Source: Escherichia phage PJNS034. From it: DNA of 64,000 nucleotides. The translations under genes were made by a program, and so were the position numbers. The stretch lies in sequence record PP391266.1, one strand, 5' to 3'. Positions 3,724 to 57,156 of this stretch are shown here, piece after piece. Position 1 is the stretch's first letter. Each line of letters starts with the position of its first letter. Under the pieces are notes generated by a model. The model did no database searches and was not told where the DNA came from. It saw only the letters and a list, made by a program, of their open reading frames with translations.

Positions 3724-4047
3724 ATGATTCTATCTGGCACTGTAAATCTTCAAACTGTTAACACTGAGAAGTTAGTAGAAATTGGTGAAGCTGTCTGCAT
3801 CGCTATGGAGCAACGTAAGCAGCTCCTACGCAAGAAGTTCCGAAAGCATGGTAAGGATGCCCTTACTGACTTTGAACTCCGCCTGATTGACGAGGCGCAC
3901 GATTTGGGCACAGACTTCAACGAAGCACTGACTCTTGAATCAAAACGACACGATGAACAACTTGAATCTGACTTCGCTGCTATGAACGCTGCTGATAACG
4001 TCGGTTCAGAAACATTAAAACTGTTAGACATTCCAGCAGAACGATGA
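3724..4047 (+). CDS. hypothetical protein (107 aa)
   Basis: ORF-track ORF. Confidence 0.3.
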   Translation: MILSGTVNLQTVNTEKLVEIGEAVCIAMEQRKQLLRKKFRKHGKDALTDFELRLIDEAHDLGTDFNEALTLESKRHDEQLESDFAAMNAADNVGSETLKLLDIPAER

Positions 4048-4074
4048 TACTCTAGGGCTTCCCGTTAGGGGAGA

Positions 4075-4130
4075 GTAAGAAATAATATAAGGAATATTAG
4101 TAAGATATAATATTCCTTAATATTACTCCT
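4075..4130. repeat. AT-rich palindromic element (aaggaatatta / taatattcctt) with TAAGAAATAATATAAG core
   Basis: 11-bp inverted arms separated by 8 nt, immediately upstream of 4141. Confidence 0.5.
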
Positions 4131-4140
4131 GAGGTGACTC

Positions 4141-4335
4141 ATGCTTGACTCAAAATGTTCACTATGCGGTTGCACTGGTATTCATGCCTGTATGGGCAAG
4201 CCTTTAAGTGATGGTGTTATCTATTCAACTTACGGTAACACCGAAGTTAGAAAGTTAGCCGCGAAAGAGATTCAAGAAATCCAAGAATTATTGGAAAAGA
4301 TTGTTGACACACAACCCAATAACTTGGTATCTTAA
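4141..4335 (+). CDS. hypothetical small Cys-rich protein (64 aa)
   Basis: ATG at 4141 preceded by GAGG; CSLCGC...HAC cluster; sits just upstream of the tRNA array. Confidence 0.3.
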   Translation: MLDSKCSLCGCTGIHACMGKPLSDGVIYSTYGNTEVRKLAAKEIQEIQELLEKIVDTQPNNLVS

Positions 4336-4422
4336 ATACATGGGGTGAGCAATCACCTCTTCCAGAAGTAGTTGGTGTCCACTGTCCCACAAGGGCTGAA
4401 ACGGAACAGAACTTCTGGGTAT

Positions 4423-4500
4423 CTTGATGTAGCTCAGTTTGGTAGCAGCACTTGCTTTGGGAGCAAGGGGTCGAAGGTTCGAATCCTTCCATCAAGACCA
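4423..4500 (+). tRNA. tRNA-Pro (anticodon TGG), CCA encoded
   Basis: Hand-folded cloverleaf: acceptor cttgatg/catcaag, anticodon stem cttgc/gcaag with loop tttggga, T-arm gaagg-ttcgaat-ccttc; D-stem only 3 bp. Confidence 0.7.
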
Positions 4501-4501
4501 A

Positions 4502-4583
4502 GTGGGATTGGCTGAGTGGTCGAAAGCACCTGACTGTAAATCAGGCATATCACGCGGTGGTTCGAATCCATCATCCCACACCA
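4502..4583 (+). tRNA. tRNA-Tyr (anticodon GTA), CCA encoded
   Basis: Acceptor gtgggat/atcccac, anticodon stem cctga/tcagg with loop ctgtaaa, extended variable region, T-arm ggtgg-ttcgaat-ccatc. Confidence 0.65.
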
Positions 4584-4585
4584 AA

Positions 4586-4662
4586 GCGTCACTAACTCAA
4601 TTGGTTAGAGTAGCGGTCTTTTAAACCGCAGGTTCTGAGTTCGAGTCTCAGGTGGCGTACCA
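4586..4662 (+). tRNA. tRNA-Lys (anticodon TTT), CCA encoded
   Basis: Acceptor gcgtcac/gtggcgt (two G-U pairs), D-arm actc...gagt, anticodon stem gcggt/accgc with loop cttttaa, T-arm ctgag-ttcgagt-ctcag. Confidence 0.8.
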
Positions 4663-4664
4663 AA

Positions 4665-4754
4665 GGAAGTTAGGGCTTTGTGGAAAGCAATCGGTCTTGA
4701 AAACCGACCCACTGTAGCGATATGGTGATGGTTCGACTCCATTAGCTTCCTCCA
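4665..4754 (+). tRNA. tRNA-Ser (anticodon TGA), type II, CCA encoded
   Basis: Acceptor ggaagtt/agcttcc, anticodon stem tcggt/accga with loop cttgaaa, long variable arm, T-loop ttcgact. Confidence 0.75.
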
Positions 4755-4756
4755 AT

Positions 4757-4833
4757 TGTTTCGTAGCTCAGTTGGTAAGAGCGTTCGGCTGATAACCGAA
4801 AGGTCACAAGTTCGAGTCTTGTCGAAACAACCA
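4757..4833 (+). tRNA. tRNA-Ile (anticodon GAT), CCA encoded
   Basis: Canonical cloverleaf: acceptor tgtttcg/cgaaaca, D-arm gctc-agttggtaa-gagc, anticodon stem ttcgg/ccgaa with loop ctgataa, T-arm acaag-ttcgagt-cttgt. Confidence 0.85.
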
Positions 4834-4836
4834 AAT

Positions 4837-4925
4837 GACGGGTTGGCAGAGTTGGTTTATTGCAGCAGCTTGCTAAGTTGCCGAGTCGAAAGGCTCCGTG
4901 GGTTCGAATCCCACACCCGACGCCA
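4837..4925 (+). tRNA. tRNA-Ser (anticodon GCT), type II, CCA encoded
   Basis: Anticodon stem gcagc/gttgc with loop ttgctaa, 16-nt variable arm, T-arm gtggg-ttcgaat-cccac; acceptor has one A-A mismatch as read. Confidence 0.6.
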
Positions 4926-4926
4926 A

Positions 4927-5002
4927 GGACGATAAGCACATGTGGATGTGCGGCAGGCTGTTAACCTGATGGCAGTTGGTTCGAATCCAACATCGTCCGC
5001 CA
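4927..5002 (+). tRNA. tRNA-Asn (anticodon GTT), CCA encoded
   Basis: Acceptor ggacgat/atcgtcc, D-arm gcac...gtgc, anticodon loop ctgttaa, T-arm gttgg-ttcgaat-ccaac. Confidence 0.75.
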
Positions 5003-5004
5003 AT

Positions 5005-5079
5005 AGCGAGATAGTTCAGTGGTAGAATATCGGTTTCATACGCCGACCGTCGATGGTTCGATTCCATCTCTCGCTACCA
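5005..5079 (+). tRNA. tRNA with CAT anticodon (elongator Met or Ile2 type), CCA encoded
   Basis: Acceptor agcgaga/tctcgct fully paired at 1:72 (not initiator-like), anticodon stem tcggt/gccga with loop ttcatac, T-arm gatgg-ttcgatt-ccatc. Confidence 0.75.
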
Positions 5080-5095
5080 AACCTCTTTATCCGAT

Positions 5096-5167
5096 GGGAG
5101 TGTCCTTCTGGGAAGGATGTGGATTCCAACCCCACTAAGTAGAGTTCGATTCTTTACACTCCCGCCA
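5096..5167 (+). tRNA. tRNA-like, possibly tRNA-Gly (anticodon TCC), CCA encoded
   Basis: Acceptor gggagtg/cactccc and T-arm tagag-ttcgatt-cttta fold well; D-loop very short and one mismatch in the anticodon stem. Confidence 0.45.
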
Positions 5168-5174
5168 AATCCCT

Positions 5175-5251
5175 AGCCTTGTAGTGTAGTCTGGTTAGCA
5201 CACGTGACTTTGACTCACGGAGCTTAGGTTCGAATCCTGACAGGGCTGCCA
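5175..5251 (+). tRNA. tRNA-Gln (anticodon TTG), CCA encoded
   Basis: Acceptor agccttg/cagggct, D-arm gtgt...gcac, anticodon stem cgtga/tcacg with loop ctttgac, T-arm ttagg-ttcgaat-cctga. Confidence 0.8.
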
Positions 5252-5267
5252 ATAAGAGGTAATATCA

Positions 5268-5558
5268 ATGTCTGTTCGTTGTTGGAATGCCGCTGGAAAG
5301 CTGGTAGCAGATGTTGGTGACTACAATGTCCGATACTTAGGACGTCAGACGATTACTTACCCTGCGAAAGCTGCTTCAGCAAGAGGCAACTTAGCGGGGT
5401 TAACTGCATCTGGCTCCTTTGGAGTCATTGTGGGAGCCAGTCAAGGTGCCTTTAATGATTATGTAGTAAAGGCAGTTAACGGTGGGTATGAAGTTCTGGC
5501 TAACAGGACAATCTACCAAAATACGACACTTACAGTGGATTTATATAGCTTCGTATGA
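5268..5558 (+). CDS. hypothetical protein (96 aa)
   Basis: ATG at 5268 preceded by AAGAGG; no recognisable motif. Confidence 0.35.
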   Translation: MSVRCWNAAGKLVADVGDYNVRYLGRQTITYPAKAASARGNLAGLTASGSFGVIVGASQGAFNDYVVKAVNGGYEVLANRTIYQNTTLTVDLYSFV

Positions 5559-6220
5559 GTACCATTCAACTTCGTAATTCAGCAGGTGCGATAACGGTAG
5601 ACTCAGATAACAAGGCTGCCCACTACCGTGACCACGTAGCCATGACCACTATTACTGACCGAGGGTATTATGTTTTACCCAATAAGTTAGGTGGTACTGG
5701 TGATATGGGTTATCCTGCAAGGAATCAGCAATTTAAAGCTGATGATAACCTTCAATGGTTCCGATTCAATAACAATGCCAAAGCAATGTTCTGCATCAAC
5801 CAATACCTTGGTGGTGGCTTAGTTACACAGAATGCTGGAGTGATGGCTCGTACACACTTCAACCTTCCGGTAGCTAAAGGCTATATCAACATCTGGAATG
5901 CTCAAGGTCAGTTGATTTGGTCAGATGCTCAGGCAGCGAAGATTCCACGTATTGTGGGCTTCTTCACAATTCCTCCAAACTTTGACTTAGACAACAACGT
6001 GTACTCCCAAAACATTGGTCTGGACAAGTTCATTCTTGCCAGTATGTGTCCGGGTGAAATCAGTGATGATGGTACAGTAGCAGGTTGGTCAGGCTTGTTC
6101 TTTCGAATGGTAAATGGAACGCTGCAAGTGCAGTGGCTCAACAAATACCAGAAAACATGGGCGCAAACTTTTAAGGCAACAGGGATGAAAATCCCATATG
6201 CAATTTTTCCAAACTTATAG
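5555..6220 (+). CDS. hypothetical protein (221 aa)
   Basis: ORF-track ORF whose start overlaps the previous stop. Confidence 0.35.
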   Translation: MSTIQLRNSAGAITVDSDNKAAHYRDHVAMTTITDRGYYVLPNKLGGTGDMGYPARNQQFKADDNLQWFRFNNNAKAMFCINQYLGGGLVTQNAGVMARTHFNLPVAKGYINIWNAQGQLIWSDAQAAKIPRIVGFFTIPPNFDLDNNVYSQNIGLDKFILASMCPGEISDDGTVAGWSGLFFRMVNGTLQVQWLNKYQKTWAQTFKATGMKIPYAIFPNL

Positions 6221-7210: not shown

Positions 7211-7239
7211 AACCTCGCCTTCGGGCGGGGTTTCTTTGT
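7211..7239 (+). terminator. Rho-independent terminator after 6422..7201
   Basis: Stem cctcgcc/ggcgggg with ttcg loop, followed by tttcttt. Confidence 0.6.
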
Positions 7240-10345: not shown

Positions 10346-10371
10346 AAGGTCACTTCGGTGGCCTTTTCTTT
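10346..10371 (+). terminator. Rho-independent terminator after ligase
   Basis: Stem aggtcac/gtggcct with ttcg loop, followed by tttcttt. Confidence 0.55.
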
Positions 10372-17139: not shown

Positions 17140-17200
17140 TTAAAGTCCTCACTCGTTAGGTCGTTTTAGAGAGTTTATTGGGTAATTATACACCGTACTC

Positions 17201-17229
17201 TACAAATAAGAAAGCCCTCCGAAGAGGGC
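17201..17229 (-). terminator. Rho-independent terminator (minus strand) after 17236..18729
   Basis: Stem gccctc/gagggc, UUCG loop on the minus-sense RNA, followed by U-rich tract. Confidence 0.5.
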
Positions 17230-17235
17230 AGTATA

Positions 17236-19055: not shown

Positions 19056-19116
19056 GTTGCCTCCTTCTTTTTAGTTATTATATCCCAACGGATTTACAAA
19101 CTCAAAATTATATGGT

Positions 19117-19152
19117 ATTTTAAGCTTCTAGCGTCCGAAGGGAAATAATAGG
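19117..19152. repeat. conserved ~36-bp intergenic element, copy 1 (tattttaagcttctagcgtccgaagggaaataatagg)
   Basis: Near-identical to 33004..33039; lies between minus-strand genes, preceded in transcript sense by a hairpin. Confidence 0.6.
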
Positions 19153-19196
19153 TAATAATATAGAAGGGAGAGATGTTACTCCCTCCCAACATACTA

Positions 19197-20213
19197 TTAC
19201 TTAAATGAACCTGTAGCACCCATAGAGGTATTCGAGGTAGAGCCAGAGGTTTTGCCAGAGCCAGTGGTGGTTTTGTCCATCAGTGGGTTCATCTTATTCA
19301 GAATATCCATGATAGTGTTAATATCCGTCACACCTGCATCTTTCAACTGCTGACCGACTTGGTTCATGTAGCCAGTGTCCAGTTCCTTCTGACCTTGTTG
19401 CTGCTGGAGATTACCAGACAGTAACTGGTTGAGGATAGACTGCTGACCTGCACCACTGATACGGTCAAGCTGGCCTAACGCCGAAGTACCACCTGAGATG
19501 GAGCCTAACAGACCTTGCAGACGGTTTTGAACGTTCTGCTGGTTCATGTTCTGAGAGATACCAAGACCTTGCTGATACATCTGAGAAGTCAAGTCAGCTT
19601 TCTGCTGGTTCGCTTGGTTCAAGATGTTTTGAGCAACATTGGAACTCTGCTCCATAGCTCCACGAGCAGCCACACCTTGAGCGATAGCAGAACGACTAGA
19701 GCCAACGTTGCCTTCGCCAACACCCTGACGGTAGATTGAGGGCATTGTGTTTTCTTGGAGGTTACGCTGGATAAGGCGGTTTGCTTGCTCAACTGAGCTT
19801 TGTGCAGACTGGTCGATTGCATCAGTTTGGTTCTTGAGAAAGTCACTGTTGACCATATCAAGAGCGCCCTGAGTCAGCTTACCAGTGGTCTGGTCAAAAG
19901 CACCTTCACCCATTTGGTTCAGGCTATCAACTGTACCCCACAGCTTATCAATACCGCCCTGAGTTTGGTCAAGAACAGATTGTAAGTGACCTGACTGATT
20001 GAGACGTTGAAGCGCAGCAAGCTGTTCTTCATTCATGCTCTCAATCTGTTTCTCAGTATAGCCTTGTTCTTTTAGCTTGTTATAGACACCATTGGCATCA
20101 CCTTTAATGGCATCAATGACGTCTTTTGGCAAGCCGGTTTGAGAAGTAGAAGTCGAAGACGACTTGCTGCTGCTCTTACCTTTACTCTTACCGAAACTTA
20201 ATCCGAAACCCAT
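19197..20213 (-). CDS. virion-module protein (338 aa), Ser/Gln/Asn-rich
   Basis: ORF-track ORF; start overlaps tail fibre stop; low-complexity S/T-rich C-terminus. Confidence 0.35.
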   Translation of the reverse strand: MGFGLSFGKSKGKSSSKSSSTSTSQTGLPKDVIDAIKGDANGVYNKLKEQGYTEKQIESMNEEQLAALQRLNQSGHLQSVLDQTQGGIDKLWGTVDSLNQMGEGAFDQTTGKLTQGALDMVNSDFLKNQTDAIDQSAQSSVEQANRLIQRNLQENTMPSIYRQGVGEGNVGSSRSAIAQGVAARGAMEQSSNVAQNILNQANQQKADLTSQMYQQGLGISQNMNQQNVQNRLQGLLGSISGGTSALGQLDRISGAGQQSILNQLLSGNLQQQQGQKELDTGYMNQVGQQLKDAGVTDINTIMDILNKMNPLMDKTTTGSGKTSGSTSNTSMGATGSFK

Positions 20214-32957: not shown

Positions 32958-33003
32958 GTTTCACCTCGTTGAAATAACACTTCCCTTCTTCAACTTTTCA
33001 TGC

Positions 33004-33039
33004 TATTTTAAGCTTCTAGCGTCCGAAGGGAATAATAGG
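33004..33039. repeat. conserved ~36-bp intergenic element, copy 2
   Basis: tattttaagcttctagcgtccgaagggaataatagg; differs from copy 1 by one A. Confidence 0.6.
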
Positions 33040-33214
33040 GTATGTATTACCAACCCATAGTTTTCTTCACCTTCTCCCACACTTCATCATCGTATGGGGT
33101 CTTGGTGTTCTTCACTAACACATCAATTGATGCTTTAGCGATAGCTTGAGTCAGTTGCAAACCAAGAGCCTTCATAGCCCAAGTCAGAACGATTGGCATA
33201 ATGCCTCCTACAAT

Positions 33215-42072: not shown

Positions 42073-42100
42073 TTGCTATTGACTTTTTAACTCATTCGTT
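42073..42100 (+). promoter_or_regulatory. sigma70-type promoter (TTGACT-16-TAATAT)
   Basis: Hexamers read directly from sequence. Confidence 0.5.
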
Positions 42101-42161
42101 TAATATAGCTCCCCGTTGAAACGCAGAACATCGCGGAGTAAACAAGTTAATCACTAAGTGG

Positions 42162-42190
42162 TTGACTGAATCGGGTTAGTATGTTTTAAT
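42162..42190 (+). promoter_or_regulatory. sigma70-type promoter (TTGACT-17-TTTAAT)
   Basis: Hexamers read directly; followed by AACGCTCTTTAA leader motif. Confidence 0.4.
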
Positions 42191-42371
42191 GCTTACCGAT
42201 TCAAACGCTCTTTAAAAATGTGGTCTGTCTTTAGGTGGTGTTTAACATCATTACTACAAGGCGCTTAGTTAGTTATCTGGTTTTGATTCCTGTTTCATTA
42301 GTGATTCAGGCGGATTGATAAAGCATCTTCAATAAGTCTTTAACAGTTCGATACTTCGAAGAAATTAACGA

Positions 42372-42399
42372 TTGACAGCGTACTAGATTCCTGTAAGAT
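42372..42399 (+). promoter_or_regulatory. sigma70-type promoter (TTGACA-16-TAAGAT)
   Basis: Consensus -35; followed by AACGCTCTTTAA leader motif. Confidence 0.5.
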
Positions 42400-42517
42400 A
42401 GACCACGTTTTAACGCTCTTTAACAATATGAATCATTAACGCTTAAACGTTAGTTTAATCAGACGTTATCAAGTGAAGCTGAAAAGTAACACGATAACAA
42501 ATGATGAAAATAAACGG

Positions 42518-42545
42518 TTGACAGCGTGAAATGATTCGGTATAAT
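42518..42545 (+). promoter_or_regulatory. strong sigma70-type promoter (TTGACA-16-TATAAT)
   Basis: Both hexamers perfect consensus. Confidence 0.65.
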
Positions 42546-43632: not shown

Positions 43633-43670
43633 TAGCCCCTTGCATTGAATAAATGTGAGGGGCTTTTTGT
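43633..43670 (+). terminator. terminator-like hairpin after first early gene
   Basis: agcccct...aggggct stem with large loop, then tttttgttt. Confidence 0.4.
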
Positions 43671-44003: not shown

Positions 44004-44264
44004 ATGGCTGCGGGATATTTAGGCGGTGATTGTGTACACGGTGAGATTCAAGCCGTTGTAGATAACGCCGTTGACTTTGCCCGTTCTCAATTGAATTGTG
44101 GCGAGTCAGAAATGTTTTGTCTTGAATGTGATGAAGAAATCCCACAAGCAAGGCGTGAGGTTGCGAAAGGCTGCAAGTATTGTATTACCTGCCAGTCTAA
44201 GCACGATAGAAAACAAGCCAGCCAATTCAACAGGCGAGGCAGTAAAGATAGTCAATTGAGGTAA
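44004..44264 (+). CDS. DksA/TraR-family C4 zinc-finger protein
   Basis: FCLECDEEIPQARREVAKGCKYCITC matches the C-x2-C...C-x2-C TraR/DksA zinc finger as recalled. Confidence 0.7.
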   Translation: MAAGYLGGDCVHGEIQAVVDNAVDFARSQLNCGESEMFCLECDEEIPQARREVAKGCKYCITCQSKHDRKQASQFNRRGSKDSQLR

Positions 44265-44928: not shown

Positions 44929-45171
44929 TTGGGTCGCTATCGTTGGGACTGTAATTATCTGGGCGGTGTGCTGATGGAAGTATTAACAATGTTCGCTGTG
45001 TTCGTCATAGAGCTTCTCTGGGTGCATCCTATGGCATTCTTCGCAGACTTAGGTGCTGCGGGTCACTTTGGCTGGTCTTTGGCCTTCCTGATGGTGTACG
45101 GGCTGTTTATCGCTACGTTGCCATACAATATCCTCAAGCTATTCATTAAACGTAAGGAAATCCCTGCATGA
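44929..45171 (+). CDS. small membrane protein (80 aa)
   Basis: Two hydrophobic helices. Confidence 0.3.
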   Translation: MGRYRWDCNYLGGVLMEVLTMFAVFVIELLWVHPMAFFADLGAAGHFGWSLAFLMVYGLFIATLPYNILKLFIKRKEIPA

Positions 45172-45494
45172 TTACTATCGGAGACCGTGTACTGTATCGT
45201 TATTCACCTGCTGGCTTACCTGTGTATGGTGTGGTAGCTGATGTGTTTCAAGGTGTTGCGGCTGTAAGGGTTAACATTGAGAACCCAAACCAGACAAGAA
45301 GCGGCACTAAGGCGCTAGTCATGTATCGTAAGGTGGAAAGCTGGGAGCCTTTGAGTGAGAAGTCGCCTCTTCACGATGATTTTGTGTTGCTTGTACTGCC
45401 TCATAACGTTCGTATTTGGATTGTTAAGCAGTTGAAACGACACTCCGTAACACCCGTCATGCTTGAAAAGCTGATGGATATGAGCCGAGTTTAA
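45168..45494 (+). CDS. hypothetical protein (108 aa)
   Basis: ORF-track ORF; start overlaps previous stop. Confidence 0.3.
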   Translation: MITIGDRVLYRYSPAGLPVYGVVADVFQGVAAVRVNIENPNQTRSGTKALVMYRKVESWEPLSEKSPLHDDFVLLVLPHNVRIWIVKQLKRHSVTPVMLEKLMDMSRV

Positions 45495-45527
45495 TCCGGC
45501 TATTGACAACCTTCGGATGTGACGGTA

Positions 45528-45615
45528 AGCTAAGCCCAAGCGTCCGAAGGGAATATTACTAAGAAATAATATAAGAAAGATTATATCTAACTATATTACT
45601 TCTTATTAATATTCC
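45528..45615. repeat. AT-rich palindromic element sharing TAAGAAATAATATAAG core with 4075..4130
   Basis: Inverted arms gggaatattactaagaa / ttcttattaatattccc; same 16-mer as upstream of 4141. Confidence 0.5.
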
Positions 45616-45717
45616 CTTACTTATTGGAGGAGTTATGTTATCTCTTATCAAACTTCATCAAGATAAACTAATCATTGCACTGGTTGTGATTCTGTCCTGC
45701 TTGAACATGGATGGTGT

Positions 45718-46077
45718 GTGATGCAGGGTGTTTATCTTAAACCTCGCATTCAAGACCACATTAAAGCGACTCTGGACTTTCACTCTGCGGGTGGCAAGAT
45801 TAACGAGGTGATGGTGTTGGAGTTGTGTGATGTGATGCTGACCTTCGGCATATGTCTGCGAAATCATCCACCAGAAGCTCAAGGACAGGCTCTAAAGGGT
45901 TGCGCTAGGGAAATGCTCAAGCGGATTAAATATCCTGCCCTGCGTATTCTGGTGCGTAAAATGCTAGTGCCTTTCGCTTTACCTAAAGGTGTGTTTAACG
46001 AGTTGGAACACATCATGGAATCCTGCATCAACGGGATGAATGAAACAACTCACCAAACGATTGAACAAAAGGATTAA
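45718..46077 (+). CDS. hypothetical protein (119 aa)
   Basis: ORF-track ORF. Confidence 0.3.
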   Translation: MMQGVYLKPRIQDHIKATLDFHSAGGKINEVMVLELCDVMLTFGICLRNHPPEAQGQALKGCAREMLKRIKYPALRILVRKMLVPFALPKGVFNELEHIMESCINGMNETTHQTIEQKD

Positions 46078-50645: not shown

Positions 50646-50653
50646 TATACTCA

Positions 50654-50677
50654 AGCCCATCTATATGGTGGGCTTTA
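50654..50677 (+). terminator. intergenic hairpin with conserved flanks (cassette copy 1)
   Basis: agcccatc...gatgggct stem, flanked by ATACTCAAG and CTTTATGAAT. Confidence 0.4.
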
Positions 50678-50706
50678 TGAATGTTACTTAAACGAGGAAC
50701 TAAAAG

Positions 50707-52413: not shown

Positions 52414-52567
52414 TGGGTATTAATAAGACCATGACTACAGCGTTCTTTATCCTCGCTGTAGCATCGCCAATACTTGCCTGTTTCAATACAACAGCAGCAG
52501 CATTTAGTGCTGGCATGGCTGTCTTCGCAATGCTTTGTTATGTTGTAGCGAACGGTTGATATACTCA

Positions 52568-52595
52568 AGGTCATTCACAAAGTGAGTGGCCTTTA
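52568..52595 (+). terminator. intergenic hairpin with conserved flanks (cassette copy 2)
   Basis: aggtcattcac / gtgagtggcct stem, flanked by ATACTCAAG and CTTTATGAAT. Confidence 0.4.
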
Positions 52596-52645
52596 TGAAT
52601 ATCATCTGCCAATAACGGCAACTTAAACTGAACGAGGAAACTACT

Positions 52646-53455
52646 ATGACGATTCGCCTGATTACTCTTGGTGCTGACCCTGAAACTATTGTTGCTCGCA
52701 ACGGTGTTCCAACTCACGCTATTGGTCTTATCGGCGGTACTAAGGAAGAACCACGTAAGATTATCCGTGGTGGTCGTGAAGTTGGTGCGGTGCAGGAAGA
52801 TAATGTCCTGTATGAGTTCAACATCATGCCACACGATACTCGTCAGGGATTCATTGACAACATTCAGCAGATGTTGGAAGTGGGTCGTGAGATTCTGGGT
52901 GATGGTTACGAAATCACTAATAAGACTTCTCACATCTTCTCTGATGAAGACATGGCTCATTTCCCTGACTCAGCGTTTATCTTCGGTTGTGAACCGGATT
53001 TCTTCGCTGGTAATGGTGAGATGAATCCGAAGCCTGCTGCACCGTGGCCGGGTCTGCGTACCGCAGGTGGTCATGTTCACTTCGGGTTCGATGAGCGTGT
53101 AGTTCGTGATGATGAGAATGTTCGTTCTCTGATTCAACTGTGCGATATGTATATGGCGTTGCCGTCAATGCTTCTGGACACTGACGACCTGCGTAAAGAA
53201 CTGTATGGTAAGGCCGGTGCATTCCGTCCGAAAGCATATGGTGCTGAATATCGTACACTGTCAGGTTTCTGGATTCATAATCCTGAAAATACTGGCTTCG
53301 TGTTTGACCAAGCGCAGAAAGCGTATGATGCGTTGGCAACTGGTCTGGGTCGTGAGATGTTGGCACGTTTCCCATACGAACTGGTTGTCGATATCATCAA
53401 CAGCAATGACCGTGGACGTGCTGAACGTGCCCTGAAAGTTATGCAGGTTGCATAA
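52646..53455 (+). CDS. amidoligase-like protein, divergent (269 aa)
   Basis: GADPETIV and TAGGHVHFGF parallel the GLELELE and STHVHLD segments of the downstream amidoligase-like ORF; preceded by conserved leader. Confidence 0.4.
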   Translation: MTIRLITLGADPETIVARNGVPTHAIGLIGGTKEEPRKIIRGGREVGAVQEDNVLYEFNIMPHDTRQGFIDNIQQMLEVGREILGDGYEITNKTSHIFSDEDMAHFPDSAFIFGCEPDFFAGNGEMNPKPAAPWPGLRTAGGHVHFGFDERVVRDDENVRSLIQLCDMYMALPSMLLDTDDLRKELYGKAGAFRPKAYGAEYRTLSGFWIHNPENTGFVFDQAQKAYDALATGLGREMLARFPYELVVDIINSNDRGRAERALKVMQVA

Positions 53456-53637
53456 TGGAAGAAGGTCTGCTGATTAGCTGGGTTGAATCTCCAGCGAACC
53501 GTAAGACCAAGACTCATACCCTCTTCTTCGAAAGCCTGGACGAGGGTTATGAGTTCATGGCCTCTAAAAGTTGTGTAATTCAAGTACAACGCATTCCACT
53601 GGTGAGAAAGAATGGCGAAACTGGTAACGGTAAATAA
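53455..53637 (+). CDS. hypothetical protein (60 aa)
   Basis: ORF-track ORF, start overlaps previous stop. Confidence 0.25.
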   Translation: MEEGLLISWVESPANRKTKTHTLFFESLDEGYEFMASKSCVIQVQRIPLVRKNGETGNGK

Positions 53638-53803
53638 CGCAGATAAAACTGTAACTCGTCGTGTCTTTATGGACAACGAAGAGGGTATCATGTGGGCAGT
53701 TGACCAAGCCCGCACAGCACTGTCAGTCGTGACTGATGATGTGGAAGTGGTCGAGGCTTCCAGCCGTAAAGGTTGGGAAGGTCATATCGCATGTGATTGC
53801 TAA
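53612..53803 (+). CDS. hypothetical protein (63 aa)
   Basis: ORF-track ORF. Confidence 0.25.
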   Translation: MAKLVTVNNADKTVTRRVFMDNEEGIMWAVDQARTALSVVTDDVEVVEASSRKGWEGHIACDC

Positions 53804-53827
53804 TTTAAACTGAACGAGAGAACTAAA

Positions 53828-54436
53828 ATGTCAATCAATATGTCAAGTGGTGATTTACGTCTGTATTGGGGTGGGTGTTATGCACCTGTTGCATGGGATG
53901 CAGCAGATAGTGGCGTAGCAACACTGGTAATTCACGACGTTCGTGTGATAAATCCAATGTCACGTGACTACACCGAAGCACGAGTTCAAGGTGAACTATT
54001 CTTCATTCGTAATGGAGAAGAGGCTCGTGGTAATTTTGAAGGTCGTATGTCTGACCTCCTCGGTGATGGGTTCACCACTCCTCAACGCAATATCGGTTAT
54101 ATCCGTGTTCACGGTCAACCGTATTGGATTACCTTCAAACGTCGTCGTACAAATCGTAAAGGCATCACCAATGACCGTCTGGCTGTGTATGTAGCTGGGC
54201 ATCGTGGTGAAGCAGGTTTGAACTTCGGTAGTGATGTGTTGTGTCGTCTGTATGCAACCTTTGATGGTCGTATCTCTGATGATTTCTGTATTCATCAGAA
54301 CATGATTCATTATAAAGGTGTGGTTGTCGGACGTTATGAGCGTCACAATCGTATTGTATTAGCTGAACGTTTTGCGTATCTTAGCTGGTCGCTGGAACGT
54401 ATCGGTGGTTACGACGTAACGGTGGAGGTTGAGTAA
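53828..54436 (+). CDS. hypothetical protein (202 aa) inside ligase cluster
   Basis: Preceded by conserved TTAAACTGAACGAG leader; stop overlaps amidoligase start. Confidence 0.4.
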   Translation: MSINMSSGDLRLYWGGCYAPVAWDAADSGVATLVIHDVRVINPMSRDYTEARVQGELFFIRNGEEARGNFEGRMSDLLGDGFTTPQRNIGYIRVHGQPYWITFKRRRTNRKGITNDRLAVYVAGHRGEAGLNFGSDVLCRLYATFDGRISDDFCIHQNMIHYKGVVVGRYERHNRIVLAERFAYLSWSLERIGGYDVTVEVE

Positions 54437-55260
54437 TGATTATTGCTGACATTTTAGGGCATGGTCGTGGGTCGGATGTTGTTGATACGCATCCGTTGAT
54501 TGTTGGTCGAGGCCGTGTAGGACTCGAATTAGAACTGGAGAATATGCCAAATGCTCGACAAGCTGCTGGTTGGACAGTTACTGGTGACGGTTCTCTGCGT
54601 AATAGCGGCGTGGAATATGTACTCCGTGGTGCTCAGGGAGGTATGGAGTTATTTAATTCGATACTTTCTCTGGAAGAAGCACTCATGGCACATCAATGTG
54701 ATGCTAACCTTCGCTGCTCTACTCACGTTCACCTTGATATACGTCGGCTCACTGTGGCTCAACTCAAGCGTTTACTTCTGGCTTATACAGTCTTTGAGCC
54801 ATTAATCTTTGAGTTGTCCGGTGCGCATCGTCGTACTAACAACTTCTGTCCGTCGTTTAGTTTCGCTCAGCAACAAATTCGTAAGCTGAGTAACAACTGG
54901 CATCATGATGGTGAACGATTCCTTGCTCGTATTGTGGAAGGTCGTGACCGCCAATCCAGTGATAAGTATTCAGCACTGAATCTGGTTCCAATCTTCACTC
55001 AGGGTTCTGTAGAGTTCCGTGGTGCAGAAGCGAAGCCAAGTGCAGGTAAGATGATTCGTCTGGCTAACCGTATTCTAAGTCTGTATGACTTAGCGGTTAA
55101 CTCTGATATGAATCAGTCTGATGCTGAGTTCATTAACTCACTGGCGAACCTTGATGTTCAACAGGCATTGATGGGTACGATTCCTCGTGACTTCGAACTC
55201 AGCGAAGAACTGGTGAATGAAGGACGTGTCTTAGCGTTCGATATTATCTCTCTGGGGTGA
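54436..55260 (+). CDS. amidoligase (Amidoligase_2 / carboxylate-amine ligase-like) protein
   Basis: VGLELELE...DGSLRNSGVEYV...STHVHLD resembles the putative amidoligase family (glutamine-synthetase-like fold) as recalled. Confidence 0.5.
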   Translation: MIIADILGHGRGSDVVDTHPLIVGRGRVGLELELENMPNARQAAGWTVTGDGSLRNSGVEYVLRGAQGGMELFNSILSLEEALMAHQCDANLRCSTHVHLDIRRLTVAQLKRLLLAYTVFEPLIFELSGAHRRTNNFCPSFSFAQQQIRKLSNNWHHDGERFLARIVEGRDRQSSDKYSALNLVPIFTQGSVEFRGAEAKPSAGKMIRLANRILSLYDLAVNSDMNQSDAEFINSLANLDVQQALMGTIPRDFELSEELVNEGRVLAFDIISLG

Positions 55261-55261
55261 C

Positions 55262-55477
55262 ATGAGCTGGAACGAACGAGAGTATCGTAAACCAAAGTTG
55301 GGCACTGTATGTGTCCACTTCGAACCTTCGTATAAGTCAACCTTTGGAAGTACGAAGAAGTTCCCTAACGCATCGTTCTACTTGAGTACGAACGGTGTAA
55401 TCATCATCCGTGATATGGATGGTGACAACATCTGTGCATACCCTGAAGGTGTGTGGCTGAATGTTGAAATGAAGTGA
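55262..55477 (+). CDS. hypothetical protein (71 aa)
   Basis: ORF-track ORF; followed by a clean terminator hairpin. Confidence 0.3.
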   Translation: MSWNEREYRKPKLGTVCVHFEPSYKSTFGSTKKFPNASFYLSTNGVIIIRDMDGDNICAYPEGVWLNVEMK

Positions 55478-55485
55478 TTAACTCA

Positions 55486-55508
55486 AGCCCTTCTTCGGGA
55501 GGGTTTTA
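55486..55508 (+). terminator. Rho-independent terminator (cassette copy 3)
   Basis: 8-bp stem agcccttc/ggagggtt with ttcg loop, then tttta; preceded by AACTCAAG. Confidence 0.55.
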
Positions 55509-55563
55509 TGGTAATCATTACCACAAACTATTGAAACTAACTATTGAACTTGAGGAAAGTATT

Positions 55564-57156
55564 ATGTGCGGAATCGTTGGAATTATGCGTGGCGTTATGA
55601 CTGAAGGTATGGTGGACATGTTTGAACAACTGCTGTATGCAGATGTGTTCCGTGGCCCGCACTCCACTGGCGTCTATCGTGTTAATAAAGATGGTCAATC
55701 AGGGTTGTATAAGGATGCAGTACCTGCGTCTTTATATCTTGGCTCGAAAGGCTGGGATGATTTACGTGGGAATCTGAATGGAACTGCTGGTCATCAGGCA
55801 CTGTCTCAAGTTTATGTTGGTCATAACCGTTGGGCAACTGTAGGTGCAGTTAACGCTGTGAACTCACATCCATTCAAGTGCGGTAACATCACGATGGTAC
55901 ACAATGGTACTGTTGCGAAGTGGCGTTTGAATGACCACCTGAAGTATGACGTTGATAGTCATGCGGTGTGTGCGATGTTGGATTCACATGGTCTGGCTGA
56001 AACTCTGAAAGTTCTGGATGGTAAGTTTACTCTGGTGTGGCATGACGCATCTGATAACACCATGAACTTTATCCGTAATGCAGAACGTCCTCTGCACATG
56101 GTTGAGTTCACTGATGGTGGTTGGGCGTTTGCATCAGAAGGTGAGATGTTAACGTGGATTAATGGTCGTCGTAAGACCCCGTTTGGTATTAAACGTGCTT
56201 TCGAACTGCCAGTTGGCTTCCATCATAAATTCCAGTTATCCGCGAGCAAAGTAGAGCTTGCGGAGGTCGTTAAGTACGAACTCCCAAAGTTCACCAGCTA
56301 CGCCAGCAACAGCACGTATTATCCAAACCGAAGCTCAGTCGCAAGCAGCAGCGCAAGCTCAACAAACTCAGAAAGCGCAACCGCTAGACGTGTGCGTCTG
56401 ATGAAAGAGTGGGGCATTGACGTTGGAGACCGCAAAGATGTAGAGAACATGATTGTGTCTCTGGATAACATCGCGTTCACAGCGTACTCAACCAATGCAG
56501 CATCAGGTCGTATTGATGCAGACGCATGGGGTTACGATGAAGCTGTTGATGCCTGTGATGCTGGTCATATGGAAATTGACTGTAAGCGTGGTGGTAAAAC
56601 TGAAGATGTTCAGGTAACAGTTTACGGTGTTGATACTGTTAAGTGGAAAGACAACTACTCTCAGGGCGACCGTCTGTACGGTAAGATTGACAGTGTGTTT
56701 GAATCCACTGAGCATGGCAAGACTCGTCTTCGTATCACTTTGAAACCACTGACTCTGTGTACTGAGTTGGCTGATGGCGTTGAAGCCTTTAATGAGAAAG
56801 TGTTCCCGCTCCTCATTAAGAAAGAGGCCGAAAAGGTTGATGCCGACAAAAGTAAATCAGATGTTGCAGGAAGCACTGGAAGCGCAGGAACTGCAACTGG
56901 TCAGGGAACTCAGTTATCGGTTGTAGTGGATAACACTGCAAAAAAGCCGGAAGGTACGGACTCATCAAGCGGCTCGCCGAACTTGTTCAACATGTCCGCA
57001 ATTCCAATGAGTCTTAAAGACTTGCGTGAAGACAAGCTGAGTTGTGCTTGGTGCGGAAATGCAATCCACGAACATAACTACGAAATGTCTGATATGTTCT
57101 TTAAATCTCACATCTGCCCAGATTGTGCCAAGGAGTTACCGGGTTATGGCGACTGA
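55564..57156 (+). CDS. class II (Ntn-type) glutamine amidotransferase-like protein with C-terminal zinc ribbon
   Basis: Begins MCGIVGI (Cys directly after Met, hallmark of N-terminal nucleophile amidotransferases); Ser-rich linker; C-terminal CAWCG...CPDC; start moved to internal ATG with GAGG upstream. Confidence 0.7.
   Translation: MCGIVGIMRGVMTEGMVDMFEQLLYADVFRGPHSTGVYRVNKDGQSGLYKDAVPASLYLGSKGWDDLRGNLNGTAGHQALSQVYVGHNRWATVGAVNAVNSHPFKCGNITMVHNGTVAKWRLNDHLKYDVDSHAVCAMLDSHGLAETLKVLDGKFTLVWHDASDNTMNFIRNAERPLHMVEFTDGGWAFASEGEMLTWINGRRKTPFGIKRAFELPVGFHHKFQLSASKVELAEVVKYELPKFTSYASNSTYYPNRSSVASSSASSTNSESATARRVRLMKEWGIDVGDRKDVENMIVSLDNIAFTAYSTNAASGRIDADAWGYDEAVDACDAGHMEIDCKRGGKTEDVQVTVYGVDTVKWKDNYSQGDRLYGKIDSVFESTEHGKTRLRITLKPLTLCTELADGVEAFNEKVFPLLIKKEAEKVDADKSKSDVAGSTGSAGTATGQGTQLSVVVDNTAKKPEGTDSSSGSPNLFNMSAIPMSLKDLREDKLSCAWCGNAIHEHNYEMSDMFFKSHICPDCAKELPGYGD

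What the first reader, a model, noticed from the sequence alone, without database searches (positions are those of the whole stretch)
4075..4130. AT-rich palindromic elements sharing a 16-bp core at two distant loci
The 16-mer TAAGAAATAATATAAG with flanking GGAATATTA inverted repeats occurs upstream of the gene at 4141 and again at 45545-45615 upstream of an early gene, in the same orientation. The arms can form long AU-rich hairpins in RNA or cruciforms in DNA. Candidates: RNase III-type processing sites, operators for a phage regulator, or promoters for a modified polymerase.
Basis: seen in the sequence. Interest (0 to 1): 0.4.

Follow-up and report, generated by a model that had tools for sequence, protein, structure and literature searches.

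The report
Promoter-linked AT-rich leader hairpins in phage
Two related AT-rich palindromes in this 64-kb coliphage genome each lie between a host-type promoter and the ribosome-binding site of a small first gene, so they are probably conserved regulatory cassettes that form a long leader hairpin, but what the hairpin does has not been tested.

Summary
TAAGAAATAATATAAG occurs exactly twice (4076, 45560). Both sites are long A+T-rich quasi-palindromes, and copy 2 is the best inverted repeat in the genome.

The window is Escherichia phage PJNS034, a distant phiEco32-like podovirus. Comparison with TacPo2 and about ten metagenomic relatives changes the picture in four ways:

- **Promoter upstream.** Each palindrome sits just downstream of a sigma70-type promoter whose variation looks like that of a real promoter. 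Each palindrome ends at a Shine-Dalgarno sequence and a small ORF.
- **Derived 16-mer.** The shared same-strand 16-mer exists only in this genome. In 5 of 6 genomes the two elements match best in opposite orientation, sharing the 18-mer ATATTAGTAAGATATAAT.
- **Strong conservation.** Copy 1 is 98-100% conserved from its extended -10 to the end of the palindrome, even where the flanks are 28-56% identical and the downstream gene differs.
- **A wider family.** Copy 2 belongs to a three-member, same-strand family of promoter + CGTCCGAAGGGAA + hairpin. Two members are antisense to late genes.

Best reading: promoter, leader hairpin and ribosome-binding site form one cassette. I infer that the hairpin is an RNA processing or stability signal of the RNase III type, as in T7 promoter/R-site pairs. 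A DNA-level role (operator, central TATAAT, origin unwinding element) is not excluded. A promoter for a phage sigma factor or polymerase is not supported. Interest is moderate.

The parts
4025..4053 (+). Promoter of the copy-1 cassette: -35 TAGACA (4025-4030), 17-bp spacer, TG (4045-4046), -10 TACTCT (4048-4053). It overlaps the stop codon of ORF 3724-4047.
   Evidence: Read from the sequence. The mosaic relative L020 has TTGACA, an 18-bp spacer and TGaTACTCT at the same place, although the -35 and spacer sequence is only 29% identical. The conserved block starts exactly at the TG.
4058..4073 (+). Short G+C-rich hairpin H1: CUUCCC-GUUA-GGGGAG.
   Evidence: Seen in the MFE and centroid folds. 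Invariant in 4 genomes.
4076..4091 (+). 16-mer TAAGAAATAATATAAG, copy 1.
4083..4125 (+). Copy-1 A+T-rich quasi-palindrome. Arms are 4083-4099 and 4108-4125 with one bulge; the loop GTAAGATA is 4100-4107. An optional lower stem pairs GGAG 4070-4073 with CTCC 4126-4129. The centre carries TATAAT at 4106-4111.
   Evidence: Folds. The sequence is 98-100% identical in TacPo2, L006 and L020.
4131..4335 (+). SD GAGGTGA (4131-4137) and a 64-aa Cys-rich ORF (4141-4335).
   Evidence: In L020 the same SD is followed by a different, lipoprotein-like ORF.
45503..45531 (+). Promoter of the copy-2 cassette: -35 TTGACA (45503-45508), 17-bp spacer, -10 TAAGCT (45526-45531). The predicted start is near A45538/45539.
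   Evidence: Six-genome alignment. The -35 is invariant, the spacer is always 17 bp and only 68% identical, and the -10 reads TAAGCT, TATGCT, TAAACT or TACAAT.
45541..45558 (+). Invariant box CGTCCGAAGGGAATATTA. The first 13 nt are shared with sites at 19132 and 33020. GAAGGGAATATTA opens the hairpin.
   Evidence: 100% identity in 6 genomes.
45547..45618 (+). Copy-2 A+T-rich quasi-palindrome. Arms are 45547-45573 and 45592-45618. The 16-mer is at 45560-45575. The centre carries TATAAT on the - strand (45585-45580).
   Evidence: The consensus structure has 26 pairs in 6 genomes, with 1 compensatory pair and 3 AU/GU switches.
45626..45721 (+). SD GGAGGAG (45626-45632) and a 28-aa hydrophobic ORF (45635-45721). 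The ORF's stop overlaps the start (TGATG) of the DUF7740 gene at 45721-46077.
19093..19190 (+). Related site s19: TTTACA, 17-bp spacer, TGgTATTTT (19093-19121), box CGTCCGAAGGGAA (19132-19144), then a hairpin (19150-19205). It lies in the late-gene arm, antisense to the late genes.
33001..33060 (+). Related site s33: TGcTATTTT (33001-33009), box (33020-33032), then a small hairpin. It is antisense to the late genes.
   Evidence: 7 genomes.

Best explanation
Each palindrome is the transcribed leader of a compact expression cassette conserved in this phage clade. The order is: sigma70-type promoter, a short G+C-rich box, a 45-70-nt A+U-rich hairpin, a Shine-Dalgarno sequence, and the first small ORF of a + strand transcription unit.

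**Shown**
- The anatomy of the cassettes.
- The promoter-like pattern of conservation.
- The conserved ability to pair.
- The fact that the two elements are paralogous.

**Inferred**
- Host RNA polymerase starts about 15-25 nt upstream of the palindrome, near 4060 and 45538.
- The nascent RNA folds into a 17-27-bp AU-rich helix that ends 1-9 nt before the SD.
- This helix serves as a double-stranded RNA processing or stability signal of the host RNase III class.
- Cleavage would give locally initiated and read-through transcripts a common 5' end next to the SD. It would also leave the upstream message with a protective 3' hairpin.

This is how the promoter/R-site pairs of T7 work (from my own knowledge of Dunn & Studier 1983).
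For: - **Promoter of copy 2.** In six genomes the -35 TTGACA is invariant and the spacer is always 17 bp but only 68% identical. The -10 varies as TAAGCT, TATGCT, TAAACT or TACAAT, always TA...T. The discriminator is 63% identical.
- **Promoter of copy 1.** The window has TAGACA, 17 bp, TGaTACTCT. L020 has TTGACA, 18 bp, TGaTACTCT, in otherwise unalignable sequence.
- **Position.** Both hairpins lie between the predicted start and the SD/ATG.
- **Folding.** RNA z-scores are -3.4 and -7.7.
- **Pairing kept in six genomes.** Of 26 pairs, one is compensatory (U-A to A-U), three switch between AU and GU, and few are broken.
- **Concerted change.** Both arms changed together in the window genome.
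- **Stronger constraint than the coding sequence.** The hairpin is 88% identical and the ORF behind it 78%.
- **Not gene-specific.** The copy-1 cassette, including its SD, is kept in L020 in front of a different gene. That argues for a generic leader rather than a gene-specific operator.
- **No terminator.** Nothing terminator-like separates the upstream ORFs from the elements, so read-through RNA would also contain them.
Against: - There are no transcript data.
- Only one compensatory pair was found.
- The - strand folds as well or better in 5 of 6 genomes, so nothing favours the + strand RNA.
- Unpaired bases are as conserved as paired ones. Examples are the loop GTAAGATA, the bulge AGTAAGAAA and the copy-2 loop ATTATATCT.
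- The shared centre is in opposite orientation in the two elements. The two RNAs would therefore carry complementary loops, not identical ones. This is easier to explain by recognition of double-stranded DNA.
- The uninterrupted helix of copy 1 (about 17 bp) is near the lower limit for RNase III.
Confidence: 0.4

Rival explanations
1. The elements act as double-stranded DNA. One version is an array of protein-binding units (TAAGRAATAWTA, period 12-13 bp, three direct and two inverted) that forms an operator or roadblock just downstream of a sigma70 promoter. Another version is that the invariant central GTAAGATATAAT acts as a promoter without a -35 element. That would be a second promoter towards the genes in copy 1. 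In copy 2 it would be a face-to-face promoter interfering with the cassette promoter.
For: - Loop and bulge bases are invariant.
- In 5 of 6 genomes the 18-mer ATATTAGTAAGATATAAT is shared by the two elements on opposite strands.
- A perfect TATAAT sits at both centres. The bases right after it vary, as a discriminator would.
- The repeat units can be read directly from the sequence.
- Both strands fold equally well.
Against: - No HTH or other DNA-binding regulator was identified.
- The central TATAAT has no -35 and no TG.
- The arms of copy 2 changed in concert in the window genome. Pairing explains this better than independent binding units do.
- The motif occurs nowhere else in the genome.
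Confidence: 0.25
2. The cassettes are transcription-primed replication origins. A promoter fires into an A+T-rich unwinding element, as at the T7 primary origin (phi1.1A/B plus an AT-rich region) and at T4 ori(uvsY) and ori(34). The transcript would prime the T7-like polymerase and primase-helicase.
For: - Promoter plus 60-80 bp of at least 80% A+T.
- T7-type primase-helicase and family A polymerase are present.
- The wider box family (19.1, 33.0 and 45.5 kb) is all on one strand, whatever the direction of the local genes. That is unusual for gene-expression signals.
Against: - An unwinding element needs neither palindromic symmetry nor base-by-base conservation.
- s19 and s33 are not AT-rich palindromes.
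- No initiator is known.
- GC skew here follows gene orientation only.
Confidence: 0.15
3. The conserved sequence mainly reflects recombination. The cassettes would be portable promoter/RBS modules, analogous to PeSLs, at which related phages exchange genes. Gene conversion between the two copies would explain the shared words. The hairpin itself would have little function.
For: - In L020 the copy-1 cassette is followed by three genes that are absent from the window at that position. Identity jumps from about 30-56% to 100% exactly at the cassette borders.
- The same-strand 16-mer is a derived state of the window only, as expected from conversion of copy 2 by copy 1.
- PeSLs are a precedent (PMC4122927).
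Against: - Only one indel is associated with a cassette.
- There are only two to four copies per genome.
- The hairpin lies downstream of the promoter, not upstream as in PeSLs.
- Recombination alone does not explain why the copy-2 hairpin is kept in six genomes.
- This rival is not exclusive of the others.
Confidence: 0.12
4. The palindromes are promoters for a phage-encoded sigma factor or a modified polymerase, like the phiEco32 gp36 single-element promoters (tAATGTAtA).
For: - The phage is a distant phiEco32 relative.
- TAAGATATA matches TAATGTATA at 7 of 9 positions.
- phiEco32 P40 also has its motif in a near-palindrome.
Against: - No gp36 or gp79 homolog and no sigma domain was found.
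- TAATGTATA is not enriched: 9 hits against 12 expected.
- TAAGATATA and GTAAGATATAAT do not recur upstream of other genes, and no copy lies upstream of a late gene on its coding strand.
- In copy 2 the motif points away from the genes.
Confidence: 0.05

Closest known systems
T7 promoter / RNase III site pairs (e.g. phi1.1B-R1.1, phi1.3-R1.3, phi6.5-R6.5; Dunn & Studier 1983, from my own knowledge)
   Same: In both, a promoter is followed at once by an irregular hairpin of 40-70 nt that lies just upstream of the next gene's ribosome-binding site. Both occur at several places in a lytic podovirus genome, and read-through and local transcripts share the element.
   Different: Here the promoters are host sigma70-type, not phage-polymerase promoters. 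The stems are almost pure A-U and near-perfect, whereas T7 sites have the characteristic internal loop. Cleavage has not been tested. Unpaired bases are unusually conserved.
PeSL cassettes of T4-type phages (PMC2839356, PMC4122927)
   Same: Both are composite, conserved cassettes of a sigma70 promoter, a stem-loop and an SD/start. Both are repeated within a genome, sit in front of small ORFs and coincide with gene-content differences between relatives.
   Different: In PeSLs the stem-loop is a G+C-type terminator upstream of the promoter, and there are tens of copies. Here the hairpin is A+T-rich and downstream of the promoter, and there are only 2 copies (4 counting the box family).
phiEco32 gp36-dependent single-element promoters (tAATGTAtA; PMC8948821)
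   Same: The phage lineage is related. Both are short A+T-rich motifs resembling a -10 element, and they lie upstream of middle-region genes.
   Different: No sigma homolog was found. The motif does not recur, is absent from late genes, and is in opposite orientation in copy 2.
T7 primary origin and T4 ori(uvsY)/ori(34): promoter plus A+T-rich unwinding element (from my own knowledge)
   Same: A promoter fires into 60-80 bp of at least 80% A+T, and the replication proteins are T7-like.
   Different: The known unwinding elements are neither palindromic nor conserved base by base. There is no replication evidence here.
Lambda nut and HK022 put promoter-proximal RNA elements (from my own knowledge)
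   Same: About two copies per genome, each just downstream of an early promoter. Each is a conserved box plus hairpin, and strong terminators lie further downstream (7211-7232 and 10346-10365).
   Different: There is no sequence or structural match and no Rfam hit. No N-like protein was identified. The AU-rich helix is much longer than boxB.

Membership tests
Sigma70-type promoter (for the sequence just upstream of each palindrome) | A -35-like and a -10-like hexamer (TA...T) separated by 16-18 bp, or a TG-extended -10. | tested here: met
   Copy 2 has TTGACA, 17 bp, TAAGCT. Copy 1 has TAGACA, 17 bp, TG-a-TACTCT. Neither passes the simple consensus scan, because each -10 matches TATAAT at only 3 of 6 positions.
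Sigma70-type promoter (for the sequence just upstream of each palindrome) | Comparative signature: the hexamers and the spacing are conserved while the spacer and discriminator drift. | tested here: met
   Shown for copy 2 in six genomes. Shown for copy 1 by the window against L020.
Sigma70-type promoter (for the sequence just upstream of each palindrome) | A mapped transcription start. | not testable with these tools
   No transcript data were available.
RNase III processing site (E. coli/T7 type) | A double-stranded RNA helix of about two turns (at least about 20 bp, irregularities allowed) in a transcribed region. | tested here: inconclusive
   Copy 2 has 12+6+7 bp interrupted by two single mismatches. 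Copy 1 has 11+5 bp with one bulge, plus an optional 4 bp. Transcription through the elements is inferred from the promoters and not shown.
RNase III processing site (E. coli/T7 type) | No antideterminant base pairs in the proximal and distal boxes, and cleavage by RNase III. | not tested
   The boxes cannot be placed without knowing the cleavage site, and that needs an enzymatic assay.
phiEco32-type phage-sigma promoter | A phage sigma factor (gp36-like) is encoded. | tested here: not met
   phmmer with gp36 against all window ORFs gave no hit. Pfam and PHROGs found no sigma domain. A very divergent sigma cannot be excluded.
phiEco32-type phage-sigma promoter | [quoted passage not shown] | tested here: not met
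PeSL cassette | The order is stem-loop (terminator), then sigma70 promoter, then SD/ATG. | tested here: not met
   Here the order is promoter, then hairpin, then SD.
PeSL cassette | Association with ORF indels or replacements between close relatives. | tested here: inconclusive
   One case was found: L020 against the window at copy 1.
Intrinsic (Rho-independent) terminator | A G+C-rich stem immediately followed by a run of U. | tested here: not met
   The stems are A-U rich. The scans do not report either element on either strand. The tails read UGAGGUGAC and UUACUUAUU.
Any Rfam family | A covariance-model match at the gathering score. | tested here: not met
   Only tRNAs reach the gathering score. 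At the elements there are only sub-threshold, generic hairpin matches.
Promoter + unwinding-element replication origin (T7/T4 type) | A promoter followed by at least about 50 bp of A+T-rich, easily unwound DNA. | tested here: met
Promoter + unwinding-element replication origin (T7/T4 type) | Replication initiates at the site. | not testable with these tools
   This needs marker-frequency analysis or 2-D gels.

The most novel reading that the evidence does not exclude
The two palindromes and the two antisense sites at 19.1 and 33.0 kb form one strand-specific system. All four have a + strand host-type promoter, a conserved initial transcribed box (CGTCCGAAGGGAA, or its copy-1 counterpart GCTTCCCGTTAGGGGA) and a hairpin, whatever the direction of the local genes.

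Such a system would not be ordinary gene expression. It could be a set of transcription-primed replication origins. It could also be a new cis-acting signal, in RNA or DNA, that reprograms host RNA polymerase (antitermination or antisense silencing of late genes) in a phiEco32-related clade that seems to lack the gp36/gp79 sigma-switch proteins.
Probability: 0.15. Interest if true: 0.7.

Novelty: new variant of a known kind. Interest (0 to 1): 0.4.

Why it matters
The PJNS034/TacPo2/KSP100 clade is an almost unannotated branch of the phiEco32-like podoviruses; every TacPo2 CDS is labelled 'hypothetical'. Its better-known relatives switch transcription with a phage sigma factor (gp36) and an anti-sigma70 factor (gp79). 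I could detect neither here.

The cassettes are the most conserved non-coding features found in this clade. They are therefore good entry points for working out how it times gene expression or starts replication. If they are processing sites, they extend the T7 'promoter plus RNase III site' design to host-polymerase promoters. The cassettes are short (about 110-140 bp) and self-contained (promoter, leader, ribosome-binding site), so they are easy to test on reporters.

Tried and rejected
**Explanations rejected**
- **Chance repeat.** Rejected by the shuffles and by conservation.
- **N4-type hairpin promoters.** There is no virion RNA polymerase; the largest protein is a 1610-aa tail/lysozyme protein.
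- **phiEco32 sigma promoter.** The motif is not enriched. There is no gp36 or gp79 homolog. The positional candidate ORF 5555-6220 has no match to solved structures or to Pfam.
- **Genome-wide promoter consensus built on GTAAGATATAAT or TAAGATATA.** The first is not enriched beyond chance. The second shows only a marginal excess that is made up largely of hits inside or beside the two elements.
- **Known RNA family.** None found.
- **Intrinsic terminator.** Not met.
- **Gene-specific translational operator.** Unlikely, because a different gene follows copy 1 in L020.
- **Promoter of the tRNA cluster.** The cluster has its own TTGACA, 18 bp, TGnTATCTT at 4304-4333.
- **Homologous elements in phiEco32.** None comparable.

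**Searches that led nowhere**
- Four IMG/VR protein-anchored scans and one DNA scan found no relatives.
- The JGI metagenome scan gave only chance hits in DNA of 21-27% G+C.
- The exact-protein look-up for s19 found nothing.

**Test that did not discriminate**
- Wobble-pair strand asymmetry was inconclusive: 9 G·U cells against 1 A·C cell in the + strand consensus, but equal or better folding energies on the - strand in 5 of 6 genomes.

Full report
**1. The observation**

The 16-mer TAAGAAATAATATAAG is present exactly at 4076-4091 and 45560-45575, both on the + strand. Allowing 3 mismatches gives 4 hits against 0.51 expected, and none of 100 shuffles reaches that number. GGAATATTA and its complement flank both copies: 4091/4108 and 45550/45607.

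Both loci fold into long AU-rich hairpins. As RNA, copy 1 gives -17.9 kcal/mol (z -3.4) and copy 2 gives -25.9 kcal/mol (z -7.7). As DNA the z-scores are -4.3 and -7.5. Copy 2 is the best inverted repeat in the 64 kb, with 27-nt arms 93% complementary. The two loci are also the longest tracts of at least 80% A+T outside the 41.4-42.1 kb control region.

The module order differs between the copies. In copy 1 the 16-mer precedes GGAATATTA. In copy 2 GGAATATTA precedes the 16-mer.

**2. What genome this is**

The window matches Escherichia phage PJNS034; the ORF upstream of copy 2 is 100% identical to an NCBI protein of that phage.

- + strand genes run 42 kb -> 64 kb -> 1 -> 12 kb. They include a family A DNA polymerase, a T7-type primase-helicase and ten tRNAs.
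- Structural genes lie on the - strand from 12 to 41 kb.
- The portal protein is 89% identical to Pantoea phage TacPo2, 93% to the Serratia phage KSP100 fragment, and about 41% to phiEco32-like phages.
- Synteny with phiEco32 gp53, gp40 and gp33 is kept.
- Three strong sigma70 promoters (42079-42545) and a terminator (43634-43664) open the + arm.
- There is no giant virion RNA polymerase, no detectable gp36 sigma and no gp79.

**3. Comparative data**

IMG/VR and the JGI metagenomes hold no relatives. GenBank phages hold only TacPo2. Logan assemblies gave further contexts:

- L006 and L020 for copy 1.
- L011-L014 for copy 2.
- L015-L019 for a related site at 33 kb.

**4. Copy 2 (alignment of six genomes; segment statistics)**

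| Segment | Mean pairwise identity | Note |
|---|---|---|
| -35 TTGACA and upstream | 98-99% | -35 invariant |
| Spacer | 68% | always 17 bp |
| -10 | 73% | TAAGCT / TATGCT / TAAACT / TACAAT, always TA...T |
| Discriminator | 63% | |
| Box CGTCCGAAGGGAATATTA | 100% | |
| Hairpin | 88% | |
| Linker + SD | 71% | |
| 28-aa ORF | 78% | |

This is the signature of a functional sigma70 promoter followed by a constrained leader. RNAalifold finds 26 conserved pairs, one compensatory change (U-A to A-U, in the window) and three AU/GU switches.

The 16-mer exists in copy 2 only in the window genome. The other five read TAAGGAATATTATTAAG. In the window the 3' arm changed in concert with the 5' arm.

**5. 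Copy 1**

The intergenic region is identical base for base in TacPo2 and L006. L020 is a mosaic relative. It is 80-91% identical over most genes but only about 71% around this locus.

In L020 the block from the TG of the extended -10 (4045) to the end of the palindrome (about 4124) is 98-100% identical. The flanks are 28-56% identical. Both genomes have a -35 at the right distance: TAGACA at 17 bp in the window and TTGACA at 18 bp in L020.

In L020 the cassette, including its SD, is followed by a different gene (lipoprotein-like) and two more genes before the Cys-rich ORF. Long identical runs also occur in conserved genes of this pair. The conservation is therefore striking locally but not unique in the genome.

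**6. How the two copies are related**

The centre of copy 1, GTAAGATATAAT (+ strand), is the exact reverse complement of the nearly invariant 'loop' of copy 2 in five genomes. There, copy 1 (+) aligns best with copy 2 (-): they share the 18-mer ATATTAGTAAGATATAAT, with a local score of 34-37 against 24-26 for the same strand.

The two elements are therefore paralogous quasi-palindromes whose asymmetric centres are inverted relative to the genes.

The centre carries a perfect TATAAT. It points towards the genes in copy 1 and away from them in copy 2.

**7. A wider family**

Copy 2's box CGTCCGAAGGGAA recurs at 19132 and 33020, always on the + strand. The same holds at the three homologous places in TacPo2. 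Each box is preceded by a promoter-like sequence (TTTACA-17-TGgTATTTT at s19 and TGcTATTTT at s33) and followed by a hairpin that GAAGGGAA opens.

In seven genomes, s33 varies only at the n of TGn, at hexamer position 5 and in the discriminator. Read on the late-gene strand, the would-be -10 loses its first T (TAAAAT to CAGAAT). The + strand promoter is therefore favoured, and it is antisense to the late genes. I have no explanation for this.

**8. Interpretation**

What is shown:
- Two paralogous cassettes with the order sigma70-type promoter, G+C-rich box, A+T-rich palindrome, SD, small ORF.
- They are conserved throughout the clade.

What is inferred:
- The palindrome is transcribed and acts as an RNA helix.
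- The most economical mechanism is double-stranded RNA processing or stabilisation of the RNase III class. It would give read-through and locally initiated transcripts a common 5' end at the SD, as at the T7 promoter/R-site pairs (from my own knowledge).

I give this 0.4. The case against it:
- Loop and bulge bases are as conserved as paired bases.
- The centres are inverted between the two copies.
- The - strand folds equally well.

These points favour recognition of double-stranded DNA, either as an operator array or through the central TATAAT (0.25). A T7/T4-style origin of promoter plus unwinding element gets 0.15. A PeSL-like recombination cassette gets 0.12 and is not exclusive of the others; PeSLs have the stem-loop upstream of the promoter (PMC4122927). 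A promoter for a phage sigma factor or modified polymerase is not supported.

**9. Verdict**

This is a real, conserved, clade-specific regulatory cassette. It is a new variant of known promoter-proximal hairpin designs, and its mechanism is unresolved. Interest is moderate (0.4). The strand-specific box family is the part most likely to hide something new.

Noticed in passing
window 19093-19205, 33001-33060 and 45503-45558: A three-member family, all on the + strand: a sigma70-like promoter, the invariant box CGTCCGAAGGGAA, and a hairpin. Two members lie inside the - strand late-gene arm, so their transcripts would be antisense to late genes. TacPo2 has the same three sites, and five further relatives (L015-L019) carry the 33-kb site.
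   Followed up: partly
window 42079-42545 (+) and 43634-43664 (+): Three tandem strong sigma70 promoters, one of them a perfect TTGACA-16-TATAAT at 42518-42545. A 13-bp-stem terminator follows about 1.1 kb downstream. The layout resembles the T7 A1-A3/TE early unit.
   Followed up: no
window 44004-44264 (+): An early ORF of 86 aa with a DksA/TraR C4 zinc finger (Pfam E 1.9e-07). It is a candidate regulator that binds the secondary channel of host RNA polymerase.
   Followed up: no
window 4304-4333 (+): TTGACA, 18 bp, TG-n-TATCTT, inside the 3' end of the 64-aa ORF and about 90 nt before the ten-tRNA cluster (4423-5251). It is probably the tRNA promoter, separate from copy 1.
   Followed up: no
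window 50646-50680 and 52560-52600: Two intergenic regions open with the same TATACTCAAG, followed by a hairpin and then CTTTATGA. The late intergenic region at 17140-17235, read on the - strand, also opens with TATACT followed by a hairpin. This may be a second small family of stop-proximal hairpins.
   Followed up: no
window 3311, 7119, 48920 and 52635 (+): Four copies of an 18-mer, AGGAAACTACT[G/A]TGACGA, 89-100% identical. It looks like a shared ribosome-binding site and start region used by four different ORFs.
   Followed up: no
window 45470-45510: The last 25 nt of ORF 45168-45494 and the following 14 nt are 98-99% identical in six genomes, including synonymous sites. They contain the small hairpin GCCGAGTTTAATCCGGC. 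This suggests an overlapping non-coding function next to the copy-2 promoter.
   Followed up: no
window 45513-45550: An inverted repeat, CCTTCGGA ... TCCGAAGG, brackets the spacer, the -10 and the start of the copy-2 promoter. Similar brackets occur at s33 (TTCCCTTC ... GAAGGGAA) and, imperfectly, at s19. In read-through RNA they would form a second hairpin abutting the AT-rich one.
   Followed up: partly
window 4336-4360; L007 3187-3213: A conserved hairpin (GGGGTGA-GCAA-TCACCTC) lies just after the Cys-rich ORF and before the tRNAs. In the relative it is kept by a shifted wobble pair (TCATCCC).
   Followed up: no
window 52646-57156 (+): A block of COOH-NH2 ligase, amidoligase and glutamine amidotransferase genes, syntenic with phiEco32 gp83-gp86. 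Its function in this phage group is unknown.
   Followed up: no
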